A stretch of DNA of 64,000 nucleotides. Origin: a virus. The notes below the pieces were generated by a model, which saw only the letters and a program-made list of their open reading frames with translations, had not been told where the DNA came from and made no database searches. The position numbers and the translations under genes were made by a program. Of this stretch, positions 27,353 to 61,917 are shown one piece after another. The stretch lies in the IMG/VR virus record IMGVR_UViG_3300043425_001634, positions 1 through 64,000 of that record. One strand, given 5' to 3'. Every line of letters begins with the position of its first letter. The stretch's first letter is position 1.

Positions 27353-27817
27353 CTAAAATAACGATAATTGGATGGGTTTAGAGCGTTCTGTCATTTCCTT
27401 AAAAGATTTCTTTATGCTGTCTATCAGGGCATCGTAGTCGCATCCGCCGACGGGTTCAAAAACGACACACAACCCGCCCTTAAAGAGGCATAGACTTGCA
27501 CCATCAGTCGTTACGTCCCATCCGCAAACGGTAGTTATGATTTCCTCAGAGTCCGGTGAATCAAGGGATTCTAGGTTAGGCTCAAAACCTAACTCAATCA
27601 GCTTTCTGGTTTCTTGGTTGTAAGGAAGTGGCATGATGGCACTATAGTAATAATCCAAAACTTTAATGATTTGAGCCTTAGTTAACCGTGACCAATCGCG
27701 CTTGTCAAAACCGAGTGACCGGAAAAACCGCCGCGTGATTTTGAAGGCAGTTCGACTAAGGTGAGAGATTTTGGCCTTAAGTTGCCGGATGGTTAGCGTT
27801 GAGTAAAGTCGTTTCAT
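27353..27817 (-). CDS. Hypothetical protein with HeH-like N-terminus and C-terminal QLSLF motif
   Basis: LTIRQLK...LTKAQIIKVL; ends PIQLSLF. Confidence 0.65.
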   Translation of the reverse strand: MKRLYSTLTIRQLKAKISHLSRTAFKITRRFFRSLGFDKRDWSRLTKAQIIKVLDYYYSAIMPLPYNQETRKLIELGFEPNLESLDSPDSEEIITTVCGWDVTTDGASLCLFKGGLCVVFEPVGGCDYDALIDSIKKSFKEMTERSKPIQLSLF

Positions 27818-27843
27818 AGGTTCCTCACTGATAAATGAAGTAC

Positions 27844-27867
27844 CCCCATAGCCCGAAAGCTATGGGG
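27844..27867 (-). terminator. Stem-loop
   Basis: CCCCATAGC-CCGAAA-GCTATGGGG. Confidence 0.55.
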
Positions 27868-28108
27868 CGTAGGGGTTTTACGCTAGTTCTTTGGCTGCGA
27901 TTGCAGCCACCGTGCTGATAACTTGTTGGTCAGATTCAGACCGTGAGAATTCGGTGAAAGATTGCTTTAAGGTCAGAATTAGCGCCGCCGTTTCCGCGTC
28001 CCGTGGGGTGCGCTTCAAACTTGGTAAAGAAGTGCTTACGGGCTTCAAAAACGAGAGCCTGAGAGCGGTCTAACCGATAGGTGATGCTGTCATGGGTAAA
28101 GGTTCTCA

Positions 28109-28447
28109 TTATTTCCACCCCCGCATCAATTCATCTGCCAGTTGTTGTTCGTCAGTCGGATCAATGTCGTCACCGGCGATGATGTCGTAAGCTTCTTGTA
28201 GAGCCACGTCCGCGTCATCGTCATCCGCGTCGTCGTCATCTAGAGATTCTTGAATTAAACCCAAAATTTCGTAAACCGTATCGCTTGCGCCTACCAATTC
28301 ACGAATTGTATTTTGGTCATGGCGCGATAACAGGTCTAGCGCTACCCGCAAGTAGTGGTCAGCATCCGAAAGCGCCTCTAAGAAGTCCGGGGCATCATCC
28401 TTTAATCGGCGGATGATGCAATCGACATCAAACTGTGTTATATTCAT
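28109..28447 (-). CDS. Highly acidic hypothetical protein
   Basis: Asp-rich DDDDADDDADV tract. Confidence 0.65.
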   Translation of the reverse strand: MNITQFDVDCIIRRLKDDAPDFLEALSDADHYLRVALDLLSRHDQNTIRELVGASDTVYEILGLIQESLDDDDADDDDADVALQEAYDIIAGDDIDPTDEQQLADELMRGWK

Positions 28448-28752
28448 AGGTAATGAACCTTCTAGGTACAGGTATGCCCGTGTCAGCGAAACCGTCGAAA
28501 GTTTTTGCGCTGATGCGGGTTTTAACGTTTTTGGGGTTTATGGGGTTGCATCAACGTGACCATAAGGGTCAGTCTCAACCATTCTTGGTGAGGCTTGTTT
28601 TTGCTTGCCATGCTTTGTATTATAGCACGGCATTGACTTGATGCAACCTATTTTGAAGAATAAATAAAATGACTTGATTTGGATAAAACTTAATGCAATC
28701 TATCATAAGATAGAGTACAATAGACATGATAAACTGATACTGAGGTTACGCT

Positions 28753-29028
28753 ATGGCACAAATTATAAGTATGGGTAAGGTACGGTGGCGTTTAAATGAG
28801 ATCATGGCTAGATACTTTATCAGGGTTGATTACTTGGCGGAAAAGGTAGGCATTTCCGCTCAGTCACTATCAAATATGAAAAATCGTGACGATATGCCAC
28901 GGATCGACGGTGACAGACTTGGGGCGCTATGCAGACACTTAACCCTGATGGCAAGGGAGCGTGATCCGTCGGTTCTGATAACCCCTAATGATTTGATCGA
29001 ATACATCCCAGACCGTGACGCGGCATGA
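28753..29028 (+). CDS. Cro/C1-type HTH transcriptional regulator
   Basis: VRWRLNEIMARY...LAEKVGISAQSLSNMK...ITPNDLIEY; GAGG ribosome-binding site. Confidence 0.85.
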   Translation: MAQIISMGKVRWRLNEIMARYFIRVDYLAEKVGISAQSLSNMKNRDDMPRIDGDRLGALCRHLTLMARERDPSVLITPNDLIEYIPDRDAA

Positions 29029-59282: not shown

Positions 59283-59687
59283 CTAGTGGGTAATCTCTAA
59301 AGATAAGGATAATTGAGTGAAGTTTGGTAGCGAGATCGCTCGTTCAACTGCTTGGGTCTTTTTCTCGGAAATCCCCCAGTAGGCAGAAGCTTGGCTTGAG
59401 TTCCACTCCAGGCATCGAAAGTCAGCTTCGGGTAATTGGCGAATATCTAGCGCTTTTGTCTCGCAACCGAGGCACTTAATAATTTCATCGCCCAAACACT
59501 TGGACAGCATAGGGATTATGGCATTACCGATTTCTCTAAATCCATGCCAGATTGTCCGGTGGAAATGAAACCAATCTGGGGAAGTGTGCAATCTTGCGGC
59601 TTCACGAATTGTAATACATCTCGGTTCCCGGTAGTGAATTGGCCGGGGGCGGTGTGCGATCCTTTTCTGCTCCAGTACCCGCTCCAC
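59283..59687 (-). pseudogene. C-terminal remnant of a C5-cytosine methyltransferase
   Basis: RPIHY..PRCITIREAARLH..PDWF...IGNAIIP; the upstream AGTG..GSHTAP motif is broken by two apparent single-base deletions. Confidence 0.8.
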
Positions 59688-59898
59688 AGCCTGAGAATAA
59701 ATCGATCGCGATCGGTCGTTGCATTTTTTACTCTATTTATTTATTGTCAATACTTGCATATTGTACATTAAAGTTTAACAAACTTGTTTTTTTGATTTTA
59801 AACAATTAGACAAAAGTATAATCAATATTGACAGTGTATTTATTTTTTCTTATTATTGAAAATAAATTATAGCTTTAGCAGCATTTTTGCTCAACACA

Positions 59899-60513
59899 AT
59901 GAAAGGAAAGTTAATTGTTTTTGAAGGCATTGAAGGCAGCGGTAAAACCACTCAAATCAAACTAACTCAATCATGGCTACAAAGTCAAGGGTATTCGGTT
60001 GAATGTACACGCGAACCAGGTGGCACCGAGTTAGGTCAGCAAATAAGGCAAATATTATTAGATTCCAATCAGGCGGTTTCTAATAAAACTGAATTATTAC
60101 TTTACATGGCAGATCGCGCACATCACATAGAAACCAAGATCATCCCACTCTTAAATGAAGGCAAGATTGTTTTATGCGATCGCTTCATATACTCGACTCT
60201 TGCTTATCAAGGATTTGGCCGGAGGATTCCTGTAGGCTTGATCGATCGACTTAACTATTTTACTTGTGCTGATGTTTCTCTTGATTTAATTTTCTGGCTA
60301 GACATATCACCAGAAAAAGGTATTCAGCGAGCAAAGTCAAGAAGTAAGCTAGATCGGATGGAATCTGAAAGCTTATCCTTTCATCAAAAAGTTTGCAGCG
60401 GATATGGCAAGATATTTGACAATTTAGACATAGTTCATAAGATAGATGCGGAAATGCCCGCCGAAGATGTCAACATAAAAATACAAGCAATTTTAGCTCA
60501 ATACTTAATATGA
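59899..60513 (+). CDS. tmk: Thymidylate kinase
   Basis: FEGIEGSGKTTQ, TREPGGT and LCDRFIYSTLAYQG. Confidence 0.95.
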   Translation: MKGKLIVFEGIEGSGKTTQIKLTQSWLQSQGYSVECTREPGGTELGQQIRQILLDSNQAVSNKTELLLYMADRAHHIETKIIPLLNEGKIVLCDRFIYSTLAYQGFGRRIPVGLIDRLNYFTCADVSLDLIFWLDISPEKGIQRAKSRSKLDRMESESLSFHQKVCSGYGKIFDNLDIVHKIDAEMPAEDVNIKIQAILAQYLI

Positions 60514-60728
60514 AGAAAGAGAAATCAGGATACTGGCTTTTTCGGGAAACTTTATACATTGTGGGTGACTTTAGTTACGAAGATTTTACAAATAATCGTC
60601 CATTTTGTAAATTTTCAGGTTATTGTTTTTTAAGTCATCCTAGATGGAGAAAAAGCGATTTACAGTGGCGGCAAGTCATAAAAAACGGCAAACAAATATC
60701 TTGTTTTTTGTCGCCACACAAGAACTGA
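60510..60728 (+). CDS. Hypothetical protein
   Basis: ATGA-type overlap with tmk. Confidence 0.45.
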   Translation: MKKEKSGYWLFRETLYIVGDFSYEDFTNNRPFCKFSGYCFLSHPRWRKSDLQWRQVIKNGKQISCFLSPHKN

Positions 60729-60780
60729 TCGCAAAACTTTGTTAAAATTACAGTTATCACCTACCACTCTGGAGTTACCT

Positions 60781-61917
60781 ATGAAATTTACTTGCAAACA
60801 ATCTGATTTTAATGTAGCGCTATCTGCCGTCAGCCGCGCTATTCCTTCTCAGCCAAGTCATCCGATATTGGCTAATATTTTGATTAAAATAAAAGAAAAA
60901 CAGTCGATTCAAGTGATGGCTTATGACTTGAGTCTGGGTATTTTTGCGACTTTTCTTGCTGAAGTAGAAGACGATGATCGAAGCTGCATTACTTTACCAG
61001 CTAAATTATTGACTAGCATAGTGTCTCACTTATCTGATGAAGATATTACCTTAGAATCTTTGCCAGGAACAAATATAGTGGAGATTACTAGCTCTACAGG
61101 AAAATATCAAATTCAAGGTCTGGATGCCGAAGAATACCCCGCCTTACCTGATGTCAACAATCAAAATTCTTTGACGTTACCAGTTGAATTTTTTAATCAG
61201 GGATTAAATGCTGCATTATTCGCTGTTAGTCCGGATGAAACAAAGCGGGTATTGACAGGATTGCATTTAATTGTTTCTCTCGAAAGATTAGAATTTGCTG
61301 CCACTGACGGCCATCGACTCGCAATGATTGAGATACCTAGAGATGTCGATTCAATTGAAATGGAAGACGCAGATTTTTTTGAGGCTACAATTCCAGGTCG
61401 AGCATTAAAAGAATTGGCAAAGATAATTGGCTCAAGTAATGCCGAATCTTTGTCCATAGCATTTGAATCAAATCAAATCGCTTTTGGCATTGGAGAACAA
61501 AAAATGATCAGCCGAATTCTTAAGGGCAAATACCCAGATTATAAGCAATTGATACCCACTCAATTCAATAAAACAGTGACAATTAATCGAAAAAAAATTA
61601 TTGGCGCATTAGAGCGAATTTCGATTTTGACTGCAACTTGTGCTCTTTTGCGTATCAGCGAATCGGATCAGTGTGTTTATGTTACCTCTGAAGCTAAAGA
61701 TATCGGCATTGGAGAAGAAATCGTTTTTGCCCAAGTAACAGGAGGCGAACTAAGTTTAAGCCTTGCCCCTAAATACGCCATTGAATCTTTAAAGCACTTA
61801 GAGGCAGAAGAAGTGCAAATTCATATTAACTCTGCTAAATCTCCAGTTGTTTTTACCCATCTAACTGGAGCAAGTGTAGTTCATCTGTTAATGCCTATCC
61901 AATCGCGATCGCTATAA
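60781..61917 (+). CDS. dnaN: DNA polymerase III beta sliding clamp
   Basis: HPILANIL, AYDLSLGI, ATDGHRL, GKYPDY..LIP and LLMPI. Confidence 0.95.
   Translation: MKFTCKQSDFNVALSAVSRAIPSQPSHPILANILIKIKEKQSIQVMAYDLSLGIFATFLAEVEDDDRSCITLPAKLLTSIVSHLSDEDITLESLPGTNIVEITSSTGKYQIQGLDAEEYPALPDVNNQNSLTLPVEFFNQGLNAALFAVSPDETKRVLTGLHLIVSLERLEFAATDGHRLAMIEIPRDVDSIEMEDADFFEATIPGRALKELAKIIGSSNAESLSIAFESNQIAFGIGEQKMISRILKGKYPDYKQLIPTQFNKTVTINRKKIIGALERISILTATCALLRISESDQCVYVTSEAKDIGIGEEIVFAQVTGGELSLSLAPKYAIESLKHLEAEEVQIHINSAKSPVVFTHLTGASVVHLLMPIQSRSL

What the first reader, a model, noticed from the sequence alone, without database searches (positions are those of the whole stretch)
27353..61917. Phage-encoded beta-clamp plus a toolbelt of DNA-modifying proteins tagged with clamp-binding motifs
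Seen at protein termini: QLSLF (27353 ORF, C-term), QLSLF (Dam 29214, C-term), QLDLF (PAPS-reductase-like 43065), QLSLF (N6-MTase 50611, N-term), QLNLF (DUF5131, C-term), QLSLF (PAPS-reductase-like 52720, N-term), QLSLDF (55742 ORF) and QLSLSL (C5-MTase remnant). I saw none on structural proteins. The element's own DnaN retains the pocket motifs DGHRL and MP. Established: QL[S/D]LF and QLxLxF are beta-clamp binding consensus motifs. Inference: a replication-coupled DNA modification system in which the phage clamp recruits methylases and possible base- or backbone-modifying enzymes to nascent DNA ahead of host restriction.
Basis: partly seen in the sequence, partly recalled or inferred. Interest (0 to 1): 0.75.

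Follow-up and report, generated by a model that had tools for sequence, protein, structure and literature searches.

The report
Clamp-binding tags on phage DNA-modifying enzymes
A complete 91.5-kb cyanophage puts the short peptide that normally docks proteins onto the bacterial DNA sliding clamp on the ends of its DNA methylases and other likely DNA-modifying enzymes. The tags are conserved in relatives, which suggests phage DNA is modified right at the replication fork, much as DNMT1 uses PCNA in animals.

Summary
All seven strict QLxLF/QLxLxF matches in the 123-ORF proteome lie within 15 residues of a protein end (about 0.2 expected, Poisson P about 5e-10). None is on a structural protein, and their codons differ, so the signal is at protein level.

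The tags are under selection:
- All 25 members of the Dam's own clade end in Q[LMI]x[LI][FWL] after a variable linker.
- The 305-aa protein's four known homologues keep QLxLxF invariant.
- The two N-terminal tags recur on the orthologues in Planktothrix phage PaV-LD.
- The DUF5131 tail is a lineage-specific add-on (2 of 120 nearest homologues).

The phage DnaN is full-length and keeps the pocket motifs. The genome has no DNA polymerase and no clamp loader. PaV-LD has four tagged proteins and no dnaN. So the tags most likely dock on the host-type beta clamp, and the phage clamp is an accessory rather than the required recruiter.

The weakest items are the QLDLF of the second PAPS-reductase-like gene (not conserved in homologues; gene frameshifted in this assembly) and the QLSLSL of the C5-methylase remnant.

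Nothing found in eight full-text literature searches describes clamp-binding motifs on bacterial or phage DNA methyltransferases. Binding itself is untested. Verdict: new variant of a known kind; interest about 0.7.

The parts
27353..27817 (-). 154-aa protein of unknown function. It has a conserved N-terminal ~60-residue helical domain and a C-terminal QLSLF (motif DNA 27356-27370).
   Evidence: Motif. No Pfam, PHROG or NCBIfam match. Eight homologues at 66-84% identity all end in IQLSLF. In the AF2 model, residues 142-154 have pLDDT below 50, i.e. a flexible tail.
29214..30146 (-). D12-class Dam N6-adenine DNA methyltransferase (DPPY at 207) with a C-terminal QLSLF (motif DNA 29217-29231).
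   Evidence: PF02086 at 85 bits; TIGR00571; DPPY. In a 25-member clade (31-47% identity) every sequence ends Q[LMI]x[LI][FWL] after a variable 10-17-residue linker. Q306 is invariant and L309 is conserved in at least 90%.
43065..43914 (-). Second PAPS-reductase-like PP-loop protein (282 aa when intact). It is split in this assembly by a one-base difference in an A-run (+ strand T-run 43649-43656). QLDLF lies 15 residues from the end (motif DNA 43098-43112), just before a conserved GGCGCF terminus.
   Evidence: phrog_424 at 4.8e-33. Intact 282-aa ORF in the 99% relative L006. The alignment with mycobacteriophage and Bacillus phage homologues shows the motif position is variable, whereas GGCGCF is conserved. 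This is the weakest of the seven tags.
49952..50611 (-). 219-aa N6-adenine DNA methyltransferase (NPPY at 108) with an N-terminal QLSLF at residues 5-9 (motif DNA 50585-50599).
   Evidence: phrog_111 at 1.5e-13 and a weak PF05869 match; NPPY. The ATG is the first start codon after the upstream stop. The PaV-LD orthologue ORF117R begins MIIQQLCLF.
50931..51698 (-). DUF5131 (phage Gp37/Gp68, radical-SAM-superfamily-related) protein. A P/Q/N-rich 25-residue tail ends in QLNLF (motif DNA 50934-50948).
   Evidence: PF07505 at 309.6 bits over residues 5-230. TIGR04471 rSAM_mob_pairA at 4e-21. DUF5131 is listed as a radical SAM subgroup in PMC9477430. Only 2 of the 120 nearest homologues carry the tail: the phage's own and P0002, which ends KQLSLF at 74% identity.
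51701..52720 (-). 339-aa PAPS-reductase-like PP-loop protein (GGGVNS at 37) with an N-terminal QLSLF at residues 3-7 (motif DNA 52700-52714).
   Evidence: PF01507 at 25.3 bits (cut-off 22.5); phrog_424 at 1.8e-30. The PaV-LD orthologue ORF020R (36% identity) begins MAIQLDLF, aligned in register.
55742..56659 (-). 305-aa all-helical protein of unknown function with QLSLDF 7 residues from the end (motif DNA 55748-55765).
   Evidence: No Pfam, PHROG or NCBIfam match. Only 4 homologues were found among 1.84 billion representatives; Q299, L300, L302 and F304 are invariant at 34-58% identity. AF2 pLDDT is 78.6, all helices. No informative fold match. Atlas lead: DUF3102-like clusters from cyanobacteria.
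59283..59687 (-). 134-aa C-terminal fragment of a C5-cytosine DNA methyltransferase, with QLSLSL 10 residues from the end (motif DNA 59298-59315).
   Evidence: PF00145 matches profile positions 269-324 of 324 only. The motif fits only the looser hexapeptide form. No room remains upstream before tmk at 59887, so this is a remnant.
60781..61917 (+). Phage-encoded beta sliding clamp DnaN (ORF opens at 60739; homology starts at the ATG at 60781).
   Evidence: PF00712, PF02767 and PF02768 are all above cut-off. The end-to-end alignment with solved clamps (best 7evp_A, 5e-48) has DGHRLA and C-terminal MPIQ in register. It is the only strong clamp in the complete genome.

Best explanation
The short terminal peptides are beta-clamp-binding motifs. 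They tether two intact DNA adenine methylases, two PP-loop 'PAPS-reductase-like' enzymes, a radical-SAM-related DUF5131 enzyme and two proteins of unknown function to sliding clamps on replicating DNA.

Clamps are loaded at every primer and linger behind the fork. A tag therefore concentrates these enzymes on freshly made, still unmodified phage DNA. That would let protective methylation, and possibly a further modification, keep pace with replication in a host that restricts heavily.

The dock is a host-type clamp pocket:
- The phage has no polymerase or clamp loader of its own, so its DnaN must itself work with host partners that use the same motif.
- A related cultured phage has the tags but no clamp gene.

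The phage dnaN most likely adds docking capacity, so that seven or more extra clients do not starve replication.

Shown: the motifs, their enrichment, terminal position, conservation, and the intact catalytic motifs and clamp.

Inferred: binding to the clamp, co-replicative action, the anti-restriction purpose, and the capacity role of the phage clamp.
For: - Enrichment: 7 of 7 strict matches are terminal against about 0.2 expected, P about 5e-10.
- Protein-level signal: codons differ among sites.
- Dam conservation with divergent linkers: 25 of 25 clade members keep the terminal motif, with an invariant Q.
- ORF305 family: QLxLxF is invariant in 5 of 5.
- Orthologues: the PAPS1 and MTase219 N-terminal tags recur in PaV-LD at 36% and 27% identity.
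- Add-on nature: 118 of the 120 nearest DUF5131 homologues lack the tail; more distant Dam homologues lack it.
- Flexible or terminal placement outside the Pfam domains.
- Recurrence elsewhere, strict motif: among 160 other Dam loci, 6 of 7 ORFs with an extreme C-terminal strict motif are the Dam itself (Fisher P 3e-7). Two IMG/VR N6_Mtase proteins and the Psychrobacillus phage Spoks Dam also carry a strict motif.
- Recurrence elsewhere, loose motif only: the Synechococcus phage S-H1 adenine methylase has a QVSLSL-type ending.
- Positive control for the motif's meaning: in Nodularia phage 2AV2, which has dnaN, a clamp loader and PolA, the same motif sits on PolA, a helicase and two small proteins.
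- Enzymes look active: DPPY, NPPY and PP-loop motifs are present.
- Clamp is intact with pocket motifs.
- No polymerase or clamp loader in the complete genome.
- Restriction pressure: 23 of 64 palindromic hexamers are absent against 18 of 4032 others, while GATC, TGATCA and CGATCG are not avoided.
- Established knowledge: QL[SD]LF and QLxLxL/F are the bacterial clamp-binding consensus (Dalrymple 2001, cited in PMC9690074). N-terminal examples exist, such as Hda.
Against: - No binding data, and no complex model could be run here.
- The motif is short. QLDLF of PAPS2 is not conserved in homologues and sits before a conserved Cys end, and QLSLSL is a loose match.
- The close homologues of the 154-aa ORF are too similar (66-84%) to prove selection on the tail.
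- In ORF305 the motif ends a predicted helix rather than a clearly disordered tail.
- The chemistry of the PAPS-reductase-like and DUF5131 enzymes is unknown, so calling them 'DNA-modifying' rests on family context only.
Confidence: 0.7

Rival explanations
1. One reading: the phage's own DnaN is the dedicated platform. The tags evolved to bind it rather than the host clamp, making a private replication-coupled modification machine.
For: - The phage encodes a full DnaN plus a second, very divergent clamp homologue that keeps a DGHR motif.
- The phage DnaN is only about 30% identical to its best matches among solved clamps and phage clamps, so specificity could have diverged.
Against: - PaV-LD has four tagged proteins, two of them orthologous, and no clamp gene.
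- This phage lacks a clamp loader and a polymerase, so its DnaN must accept host delta and alpha subunit motifs, which argues for a shared pocket specificity.
- The tags match the generic bacterial consensus exactly.
Confidence: 0.2
2. Host takeover: the tags serve mainly to occupy host clamps. They would displace host polymerases, Hda or mismatch repair proteins and so shut down or rewire host DNA metabolism. The enzymatic domains would be incidental carriers.
For: - Seven or more clamp clients expressed together would compete with host partners.
- Phage proteins that act through the host clamp are on record, for example Mu MuC (PMC12867686).
Against: - A takeover needs one small binder, not tags on seven different enzymes whose catalytic motifs are intact.
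- Tags are conserved together with catalytic cores across a whole Dam clade.
- The phage depends on host replication, so blocking clamps would harm it.
- Encoding an extra clamp points to relieving competition, not creating it.
Confidence: 0.07
3. The peptide docks on some other hub, not the beta clamp: a host or phage protein, or the divergent second clamp-like protein. The resemblance to the clamp-binding consensus would be coincidental.
For: - Binding is untested.
- Short linear motifs can be reused.
- Cellular DUF5131 homologues carry other conserved C-terminal peptides of unknown partner.
Against: - The match to QL[SD]LF is exact in six proteins.
- The same motif sits on PolA and a helicase in a phage with its own clamp and loader.
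- This phage and PaV-LD share only six detectable genes (a tail-region ORF, ThyX, the NPPY methylase, PAPS1, Tmk and a lysin), none a plausible hub. A common hub would therefore have to be host-encoded and conserved from cyanobacteria to Firmicutes, as the clamp is.
Confidence: 0.05
4. Chance or compositional artefact.
For: The motif is only five residues long, and L, S and Q are common.
Against: - P is about 5e-10 for terminal placement.
- The motif is conserved across orthologues.
- A reversed-motif control gives only background.
Confidence: 0.01

Closest known systems
Bacterial beta-clamp clients with the Dalrymple consensus: Pol III alpha and delta, Pol II, Pol IV, UmuC (QLNLF), MutS/MutL, and Hda (N-terminal QLSLPL)
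   Same: The same penta- or hexapeptide, at a flexible N- or C-terminus. It is presumed to insert into the hydrophobic cleft between clamp domains II and III. Several clients share one ring ('toolbelt').
   Different: The clients here are DNA methyltransferases, PP-loop 'PAPS-reductase-like' enzymes, a radical-SAM-related DUF5131 protein and unknown proteins. None of these is among the clamp partners found in the eight literature searches. They are encoded by a phage, and binding is untested.
DNMT1-PCNA in eukaryotes: a PIP-box-tethered maintenance methylase (PMC9690074)
   Same: The same logic: a DNA methyltransferase carries a clamp-docking peptide, so methylation follows the fork.
   Different: A different clamp (PCNA trimer versus beta dimer), a different motif (PIP box), a different methylase class and a different purpose (epigenetic maintenance versus, presumably, protection from restriction). 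This is a functional analogy only, not homology.
Phage use of sliding clamps beyond replication: T4 gp45 with gp33/gp55, and phage Mu MuC with the host beta clamp (PMC9690074; PMC12867686)
   Same: Phage proteins carry clamp-binding peptides that couple a non-replicative process to replicated DNA.
   Different: Those cases couple late transcription. Here the coupled process would be DNA modification, by many enzymes at once.
IS transposases that bind the beta clamp (PMC3971601, PMC4549789)
   Same: Mobile-element proteins that have independently acquired clamp-binding motifs to reach replicating host DNA.
   Different: Transposition targeting rather than modification; one protein per element.
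Planktothrix phage PaV-LD (NC_016564), the nearest cultured relative
   Same: A phage of about 95 kb infecting a filamentous cyanobacterium, with no DNA polymerase annotated. It has orthologous PAPS-reductase-like and NPPY methylase genes with the same N-terminal tags, plus two more C-terminally tagged proteins.
   Different: No dnaN. Only six genes are detectably shared. The tags are not noted in the record's feature annotation.

Membership tests
Beta-clamp-binding motif clients | Sequence match to QL[SD]LF or QLxLx[LF] | tested here: met
   Six exact pentapeptides and one hexapeptide; QLSLSL is a looser match.
Beta-clamp-binding motif clients | Motif lies at a terminus or in a flexible segment outside the folded domain | tested here: met
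   All lie within 15 residues of an end and outside the Pfam envelopes. The ORF154 tail has pLDDT below 50. In ORF305 the motif ends a helix with falling pLDDT.
Beta-clamp-binding motif clients | Motif conserved among orthologues while the flanking linker varies | tested here: met
   Met for Dam, 25 of 25; ORF305, 5 of 5; PAPS1 and MTase219 against PaV-LD; DUF5131 against P0002. Not met for PAPS2.
Beta-clamp-binding motif clients | Physical binding to the hydrophobic cleft of the beta clamp | not testable with these tools
   No complex prediction or assay was available. This is the decisive missing test.
DnaN beta sliding clamp | Three tandem clamp domains over the full length | tested here: met
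   PF00712, PF02767 and PF02768 are all above cut-off. The alignment covers residues 15-388 against the whole length of solved clamps.
DnaN beta sliding clamp | Peptide-pocket residues (DGHRL segment; C-terminal MP segment) | tested here: met
   'atdghrla' and 'llmpiq' align with 'atdshrla' and 'lilpir' of 7evp_A. The mapping onto E. coli pocket numbering is from memory.
D12-class Dam DNA methyltransferase | Pfam/TIGR family match and DPPY catalytic motif | tested here: met
   PF02086 at 85 bits. The TIGR00571 match is below its cut-off. DPPY at 207. GATC specificity was not tested.
PAPS reductase / PP-loop ATPase superfamily | PF01507 match with a PP-loop | tested here: met
   25.3 bits against a cut-off of 22.5, N-terminal part only; GGGVNS variant loop; phrog_424. 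The true substrate is unknown, so sulfate assimilation is not implied.
DUF5131 (Gp37/Gp68; radical SAM superfamily subgroup) | Full-length PF07505 match and an N-terminal Cys cluster | tested here: met
   309.6 bits; C21-x6-C28-x2-C31. Subgroup listing in PMC9477430. The chemistry is unknown.
DNMT1-PCNA type clamp-coupled methylation | PIP box binding PCNA | tested here: not met
   The motif here is the bacterial consensus and the clamp is the beta type. It works like DNMT1-PCNA but is not a member.

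The most novel reading that the evidence does not exclude
Clamp-coupled DNA modification is a widespread but unrecognised strategy of phages and other mobile elements: a bacterial counterpart of DNMT1-PCNA.

- Orphan methylases, and also non-methyl modification enzymes (PP-loop plus radical-SAM-like DUF5131), would ride beta clamps to modify nascent DNA.
- Some phages would add one or two clamp genes of their own purely as docking capacity for this toolbelt, without any polymerase.

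If so, tag presence would predict which orphan methylases act co-replicatively. It would also flag the PAPS-reductase-like/DUF5131 pair as a DNA-directed modification pathway.
Probability: 0.35. Interest if true: 0.85.

Novelty: new variant of a known kind. Interest (0 to 1): 0.7.

Why it matters
How phage DNA gets fully modified before host restriction enzymes see it is a kinetic problem with few known solutions. A docking tag that puts methylases on the clamp behind the fork would be a simple one, and it parallels eukaryotic DNMT1-PCNA.

The tag also gives a handle on two abundant phage families of unknown role, the PAPS-reductase-like phrog_424 proteins and DUF5131. If they are clamp clients, their substrate is probably DNA.

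The idea can be tested now: PaV-LD and its Planktothrix host are in culture, and the Dam clade offers many natural tag variants. It also offers a reason why a phage without a polymerase would carry a clamp gene.

Tried and rejected
The contexts of the tagged Dam clade, of P0002 and of P0244 could therefore not be fetched.
No collection-wide census was possible.
- The search for related loci in IMG/VR found only a near-identical sibling when queried with PAPS1 (L006) or with the Dam clade profile (L087).
- The same tool found nothing in IMG/VR with the ORF305 family. The metagenome scan returned mostly generic Dams.
- Fold searches for ORF305 matched only designed helical repeats or generic helical hairpins (Foldseek; VIA wide). 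They give no functional lead.
- The AF2 model of ORF154 was too poor to search (pLDDT 58.7).
- PDB sequence searches for DUF5131 and for the second clamp found nothing useful. The second clamp has no relative in INPHARED.
- A DNA-level repeat was rejected because the codons differ.
- A host origin for dnaN was considered, because tmk and a PAS gene flank it. It was rejected because the record is a complete virus genome with terminal repeats.

Full report
**What the window is.** The window is the first 64 kb of a 91,507-bp IMG/VR virus record with direct terminal repeats, rated 100% complete.
- It is a tailed phage. It has a large terminase, portal, head and tail proteins and a 3,510-aa tape measure.
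- It looks temperate, or at least plasmid-like. It has an integrase, a ParM-like partition protein and an HTH protein.
- Several features point to a filamentous cyanobacterial host:
  - The nearest DUF5131 homologues come from Microcoleus, Coleofasciculus, Phormidium and Oxynema.
  - The nearest cultured relative is Planktothrix phage PaV-LD.
  - The cyanobacterial HIP1 octamer GCGATCGC occurs 59 times against about 1.4 expected.

- Among 123 ORFs (28,131 residues) there are exactly seven strict QLxLF/QLxLxF matches, and all seven lie within 15 residues of a terminus.
- From composition, 1.04 are expected anywhere and 0.16 at termini. Per-protein shuffles give 1.08 and 0.21. The Poisson probability of seven terminal hits is about 5e-10.
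- No strict match is on a structural protein.
- A reversed-motif control gives only background.
- The eight sites use different synonymous codons, so the repeated thing is a peptide and not a DNA element.

**What the tagged proteins are.**
- Two are intact DNA adenine methylases:
  - a D12 Dam with DPPY;
  - a 219-aa enzyme with NPPY.
- Two are PAPS-reductase-like PP-loop proteins of phrog_424.
- One is a full-length DUF5131, a family listed as a radical SAM subgroup in PMC9477430.
- Two have no family: a 154-aa protein and a 305-aa all-helical protein.
- The eighth, loose match is on a C-terminal fragment of a C5 methylase.

These assignments rest.

One correction concerns the '43065' ORF.
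- It is the 3' part of a 282-aa gene, split here by an A8 versus A7 run relative to a 99%-identical sibling.
- Its QLDLF lies in a variable linker before a conserved GGCGCF end and is not shared by mycobacteriophage or Bacillus phage homologues.
- I rate that tag as weak.

**The tags are under selection.**
- *Dam.* The 24 nearest homologues (31-47% identity) all end in Q[LMI]x[LI][FWL] after a 10-17-residue linker of unrelated sequence. The Q is one of only 13 invariant columns. Homologues one step further out stop at the catalytic core and lack the tag.
- *ORF305.* This family has only four other members among 1.84 billion representatives. Q, L, L and F of the hexapeptide are invariant at 34-58% identity.
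- *N-terminal tags.* The PP-loop protein and the NPPY methylase have orthologues in PaV-LD at 36% and 27% identity. Those begin MAIQLDLF and MIIQQLCLF.
- *DUF5131.* The tail is a lineage-specific addition. Of the 120 nearest homologues, only the phage's own protein and one at 74% identity, with a different linker ending KQLSLF, carry it.
- *Co-occurrence.* That homologue and the most distant ORF305 relative both report a longest contig of 23,250 bp from the same sources. They probably sit on one element.

**The phenomenon reaches beyond this phage.**
- PaV-LD has four strict terminal motifs, on the PP-loop protein, two methylases and a 110-aa ORF. About 0.2 would be expected for a proteome of that size, giving a Poisson probability near 5e-5. 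Both of these PaV-LD figures are my own arithmetic.
- In 160 unrelated Dam loci from IMG/VR and metagenomes, seven ORFs of 2,663 end in a strict motif. Six of those seven are the Dam itself (Fisher P 3e-7).
- Two IMG/VR N6_Mtase proteins end QLTLSFT and QLSLFGDDY.
- The Dam of Psychrobacillus phage Spoks has QLNLF just after its core.
- The adenine methylase of Synechococcus phage S-H1 ends with a looser QVSLSL.
- Nodularia phage 2AV2 serves as a sanity check on what the motif means. It has dnaN, a gamma/tau clamp loader and PolA.
  - The motif there sits on the helicase gp139, on PolA and on two small proteins, but on none of its three methylases.
  - The PolA case holds only if the ORF is read 11 codons upstream of the annotated start.

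**Which clamp?**
- The phage DnaN matches all three clamp domains and aligns end to end with solved clamps. DGHRLA and the C-terminal MPIQ are in register.
- Six-frame HMM searches of the complete genome find no family A, B or C DNA polymerase and no clamp-loader subunit, while the controls rang.
- The phage clamp must therefore be loaded by the host loader and used by the host polymerase. Both engage the same pocket with the same kind of motif.
- PaV-LD has the tags but no clamp homologue (tblastn E>3).
- So the tags are best read as addressed to a host-type pocket.
- The phage dnaN is an accessory. I suggest it supplies extra docking capacity for many competing clients; that is inference.
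- A second, very divergent clamp homologue lies at genome 89259-90410, next to a 722-aa methylase. It keeps a DGHR segment but not the C-terminal MP. Its role is open.

**Why modify at the fork?**
- The genome shows extreme restriction pressure. 23 of 64 palindromic hexamers are absent and 33 occur at most twice, against 18 of 4,032 non-palindromic hexamers absent.
- GATC, TGATCA and CGATCG are the least avoided palindromes, with observed/expected ratios of 1.07, 1.26 and 1.40. That pattern fits sites protected by methylation rather than by avoidance.
- This supports an anti-restriction purpose but does not prove it.

**Comparison with what is known.**
- Clamp-binding peptides on polymerases, Hda, MutS/MutL, transposases and phage transcription factors are established (PMC9690074, PMC3971601, PMC4549789, PMC12867686).
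- In the 2022 review, clamp-linked methylation appears only for DNMT1-PCNA.
- Eight full-text searches found no report of a bacterial or phage DNA methyltransferase, PAPS-reductase-like protein or DUF5131 protein with a clamp-binding motif. That library lacks most subscription journals, so absence is not proof.
- I class this as a new variant of a known kind: a known docking mechanism with new clients and a new purpose.

**Limits.**
- Binding is untested, and no complex model could be run.
- The chemistry of the PP-loop and DUF5131 enzymes is unknown.
- ORF305 and ORF154 remain unassigned despite structure prediction and fold searches.
- No collection-wide census was possible.

Noticed in passing
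whole genome (window 1-64000 and beyond): Extreme palindrome avoidance. 23 of 64 palindromic hexamers are absent and 33 occur at most twice, against 18 of 4,032 non-palindromic hexamers absent. GGCC has O/E 0.42. GATC, TGATCA and CGATCG are spared or enriched, and HIP1 GCGATCGC occurs 59 times.
   Followed up: partly
L005:11259-12410:- (genome 89259-90410, outside the window): A second, highly divergent beta-clamp homologue of 383 aa. Sub-threshold PF02768 and phrog_947 matches; it keeps 'CDGHRVA' and 'NPRYLLEA' but lacks the C-terminal MP. It lies beside a 722-aa DUF4942/LPD29 methylase. No relative in INPHARED or in PDB sequences.
   Followed up: partly
window 43649-43656: An A8 (here) versus A7 (99% sibling L006) homopolymer splits the second PAPS-reductase-like gene into ORFs 43594-43914 and 43065-43667. 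This could be an assembly error, a pseudogene or slippage.
   Followed up: partly
window 40969-42405 (-): ThyX thymidylate synthase interrupted by an intein (PF02511 plus PF14890). PaV-LD matches only the N-terminal 85 residues, at 60% identity.
   Followed up: no
homologues of window 50931-51698 (P0003-P0120): Many cellular cyanobacterial DUF5131 proteins end in other recurrent basic tails, such as ...KLELIA...KVALTA and ...TALVEM. This may be a different conserved terminal docking peptide.
   Followed up: no
L252/L253 (Nodularia phage vB_NpeS-2AV2, PolA gp064, record 48308-50644): The PolA ORF extends 11 codons upstream of the annotated start and then begins MVATLAGTQLDMF. The annotated start may cut off an N-terminal clamp-binding motif.
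   Followed up: no
L250:298-1143:+ (Mycobacterium phage Drago gp67): The PAPS-reductase-like protein has a C-terminal extension ending ...TQDQLFDLGGYL, possibly a mycobacterial-style clamp motif (QxxLF).
   Followed up: no
P0255-P0268 (distant homologues of window 27353-27817): They share the N-terminal ~60-residue domain. They carry an internal YQL[DTEN]I[WFK] at the point where the short form ends in QLSLF, followed by an extra domain. One is named 'transposase' by UniRef.
   Followed up: no
P0244 (homologue of window 55742-56659): It carries an extra ~130-residue N-terminal domain and shares a 23,250-bp longest contig with the tagged DUF5131 P0002. This may be a second element with at least two tagged proteins.
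   Followed up: partly
L087 versus window 29214-30146: In the sibling phage the Dam is only 92% identical, while the 11.4-kb stretch 41697-53163 is 98.8% identical. This suggests faster turnover or exchange of the methylase.
   Followed up: no
window 25786-26793 (-) and 48074-49165 (+): A ParM-like actin partition protein (phrog_691) and a tyrosine integrase in the same phage. The lifestyle may include a plasmid-like or an integrated prophage state.
   Followed up: no
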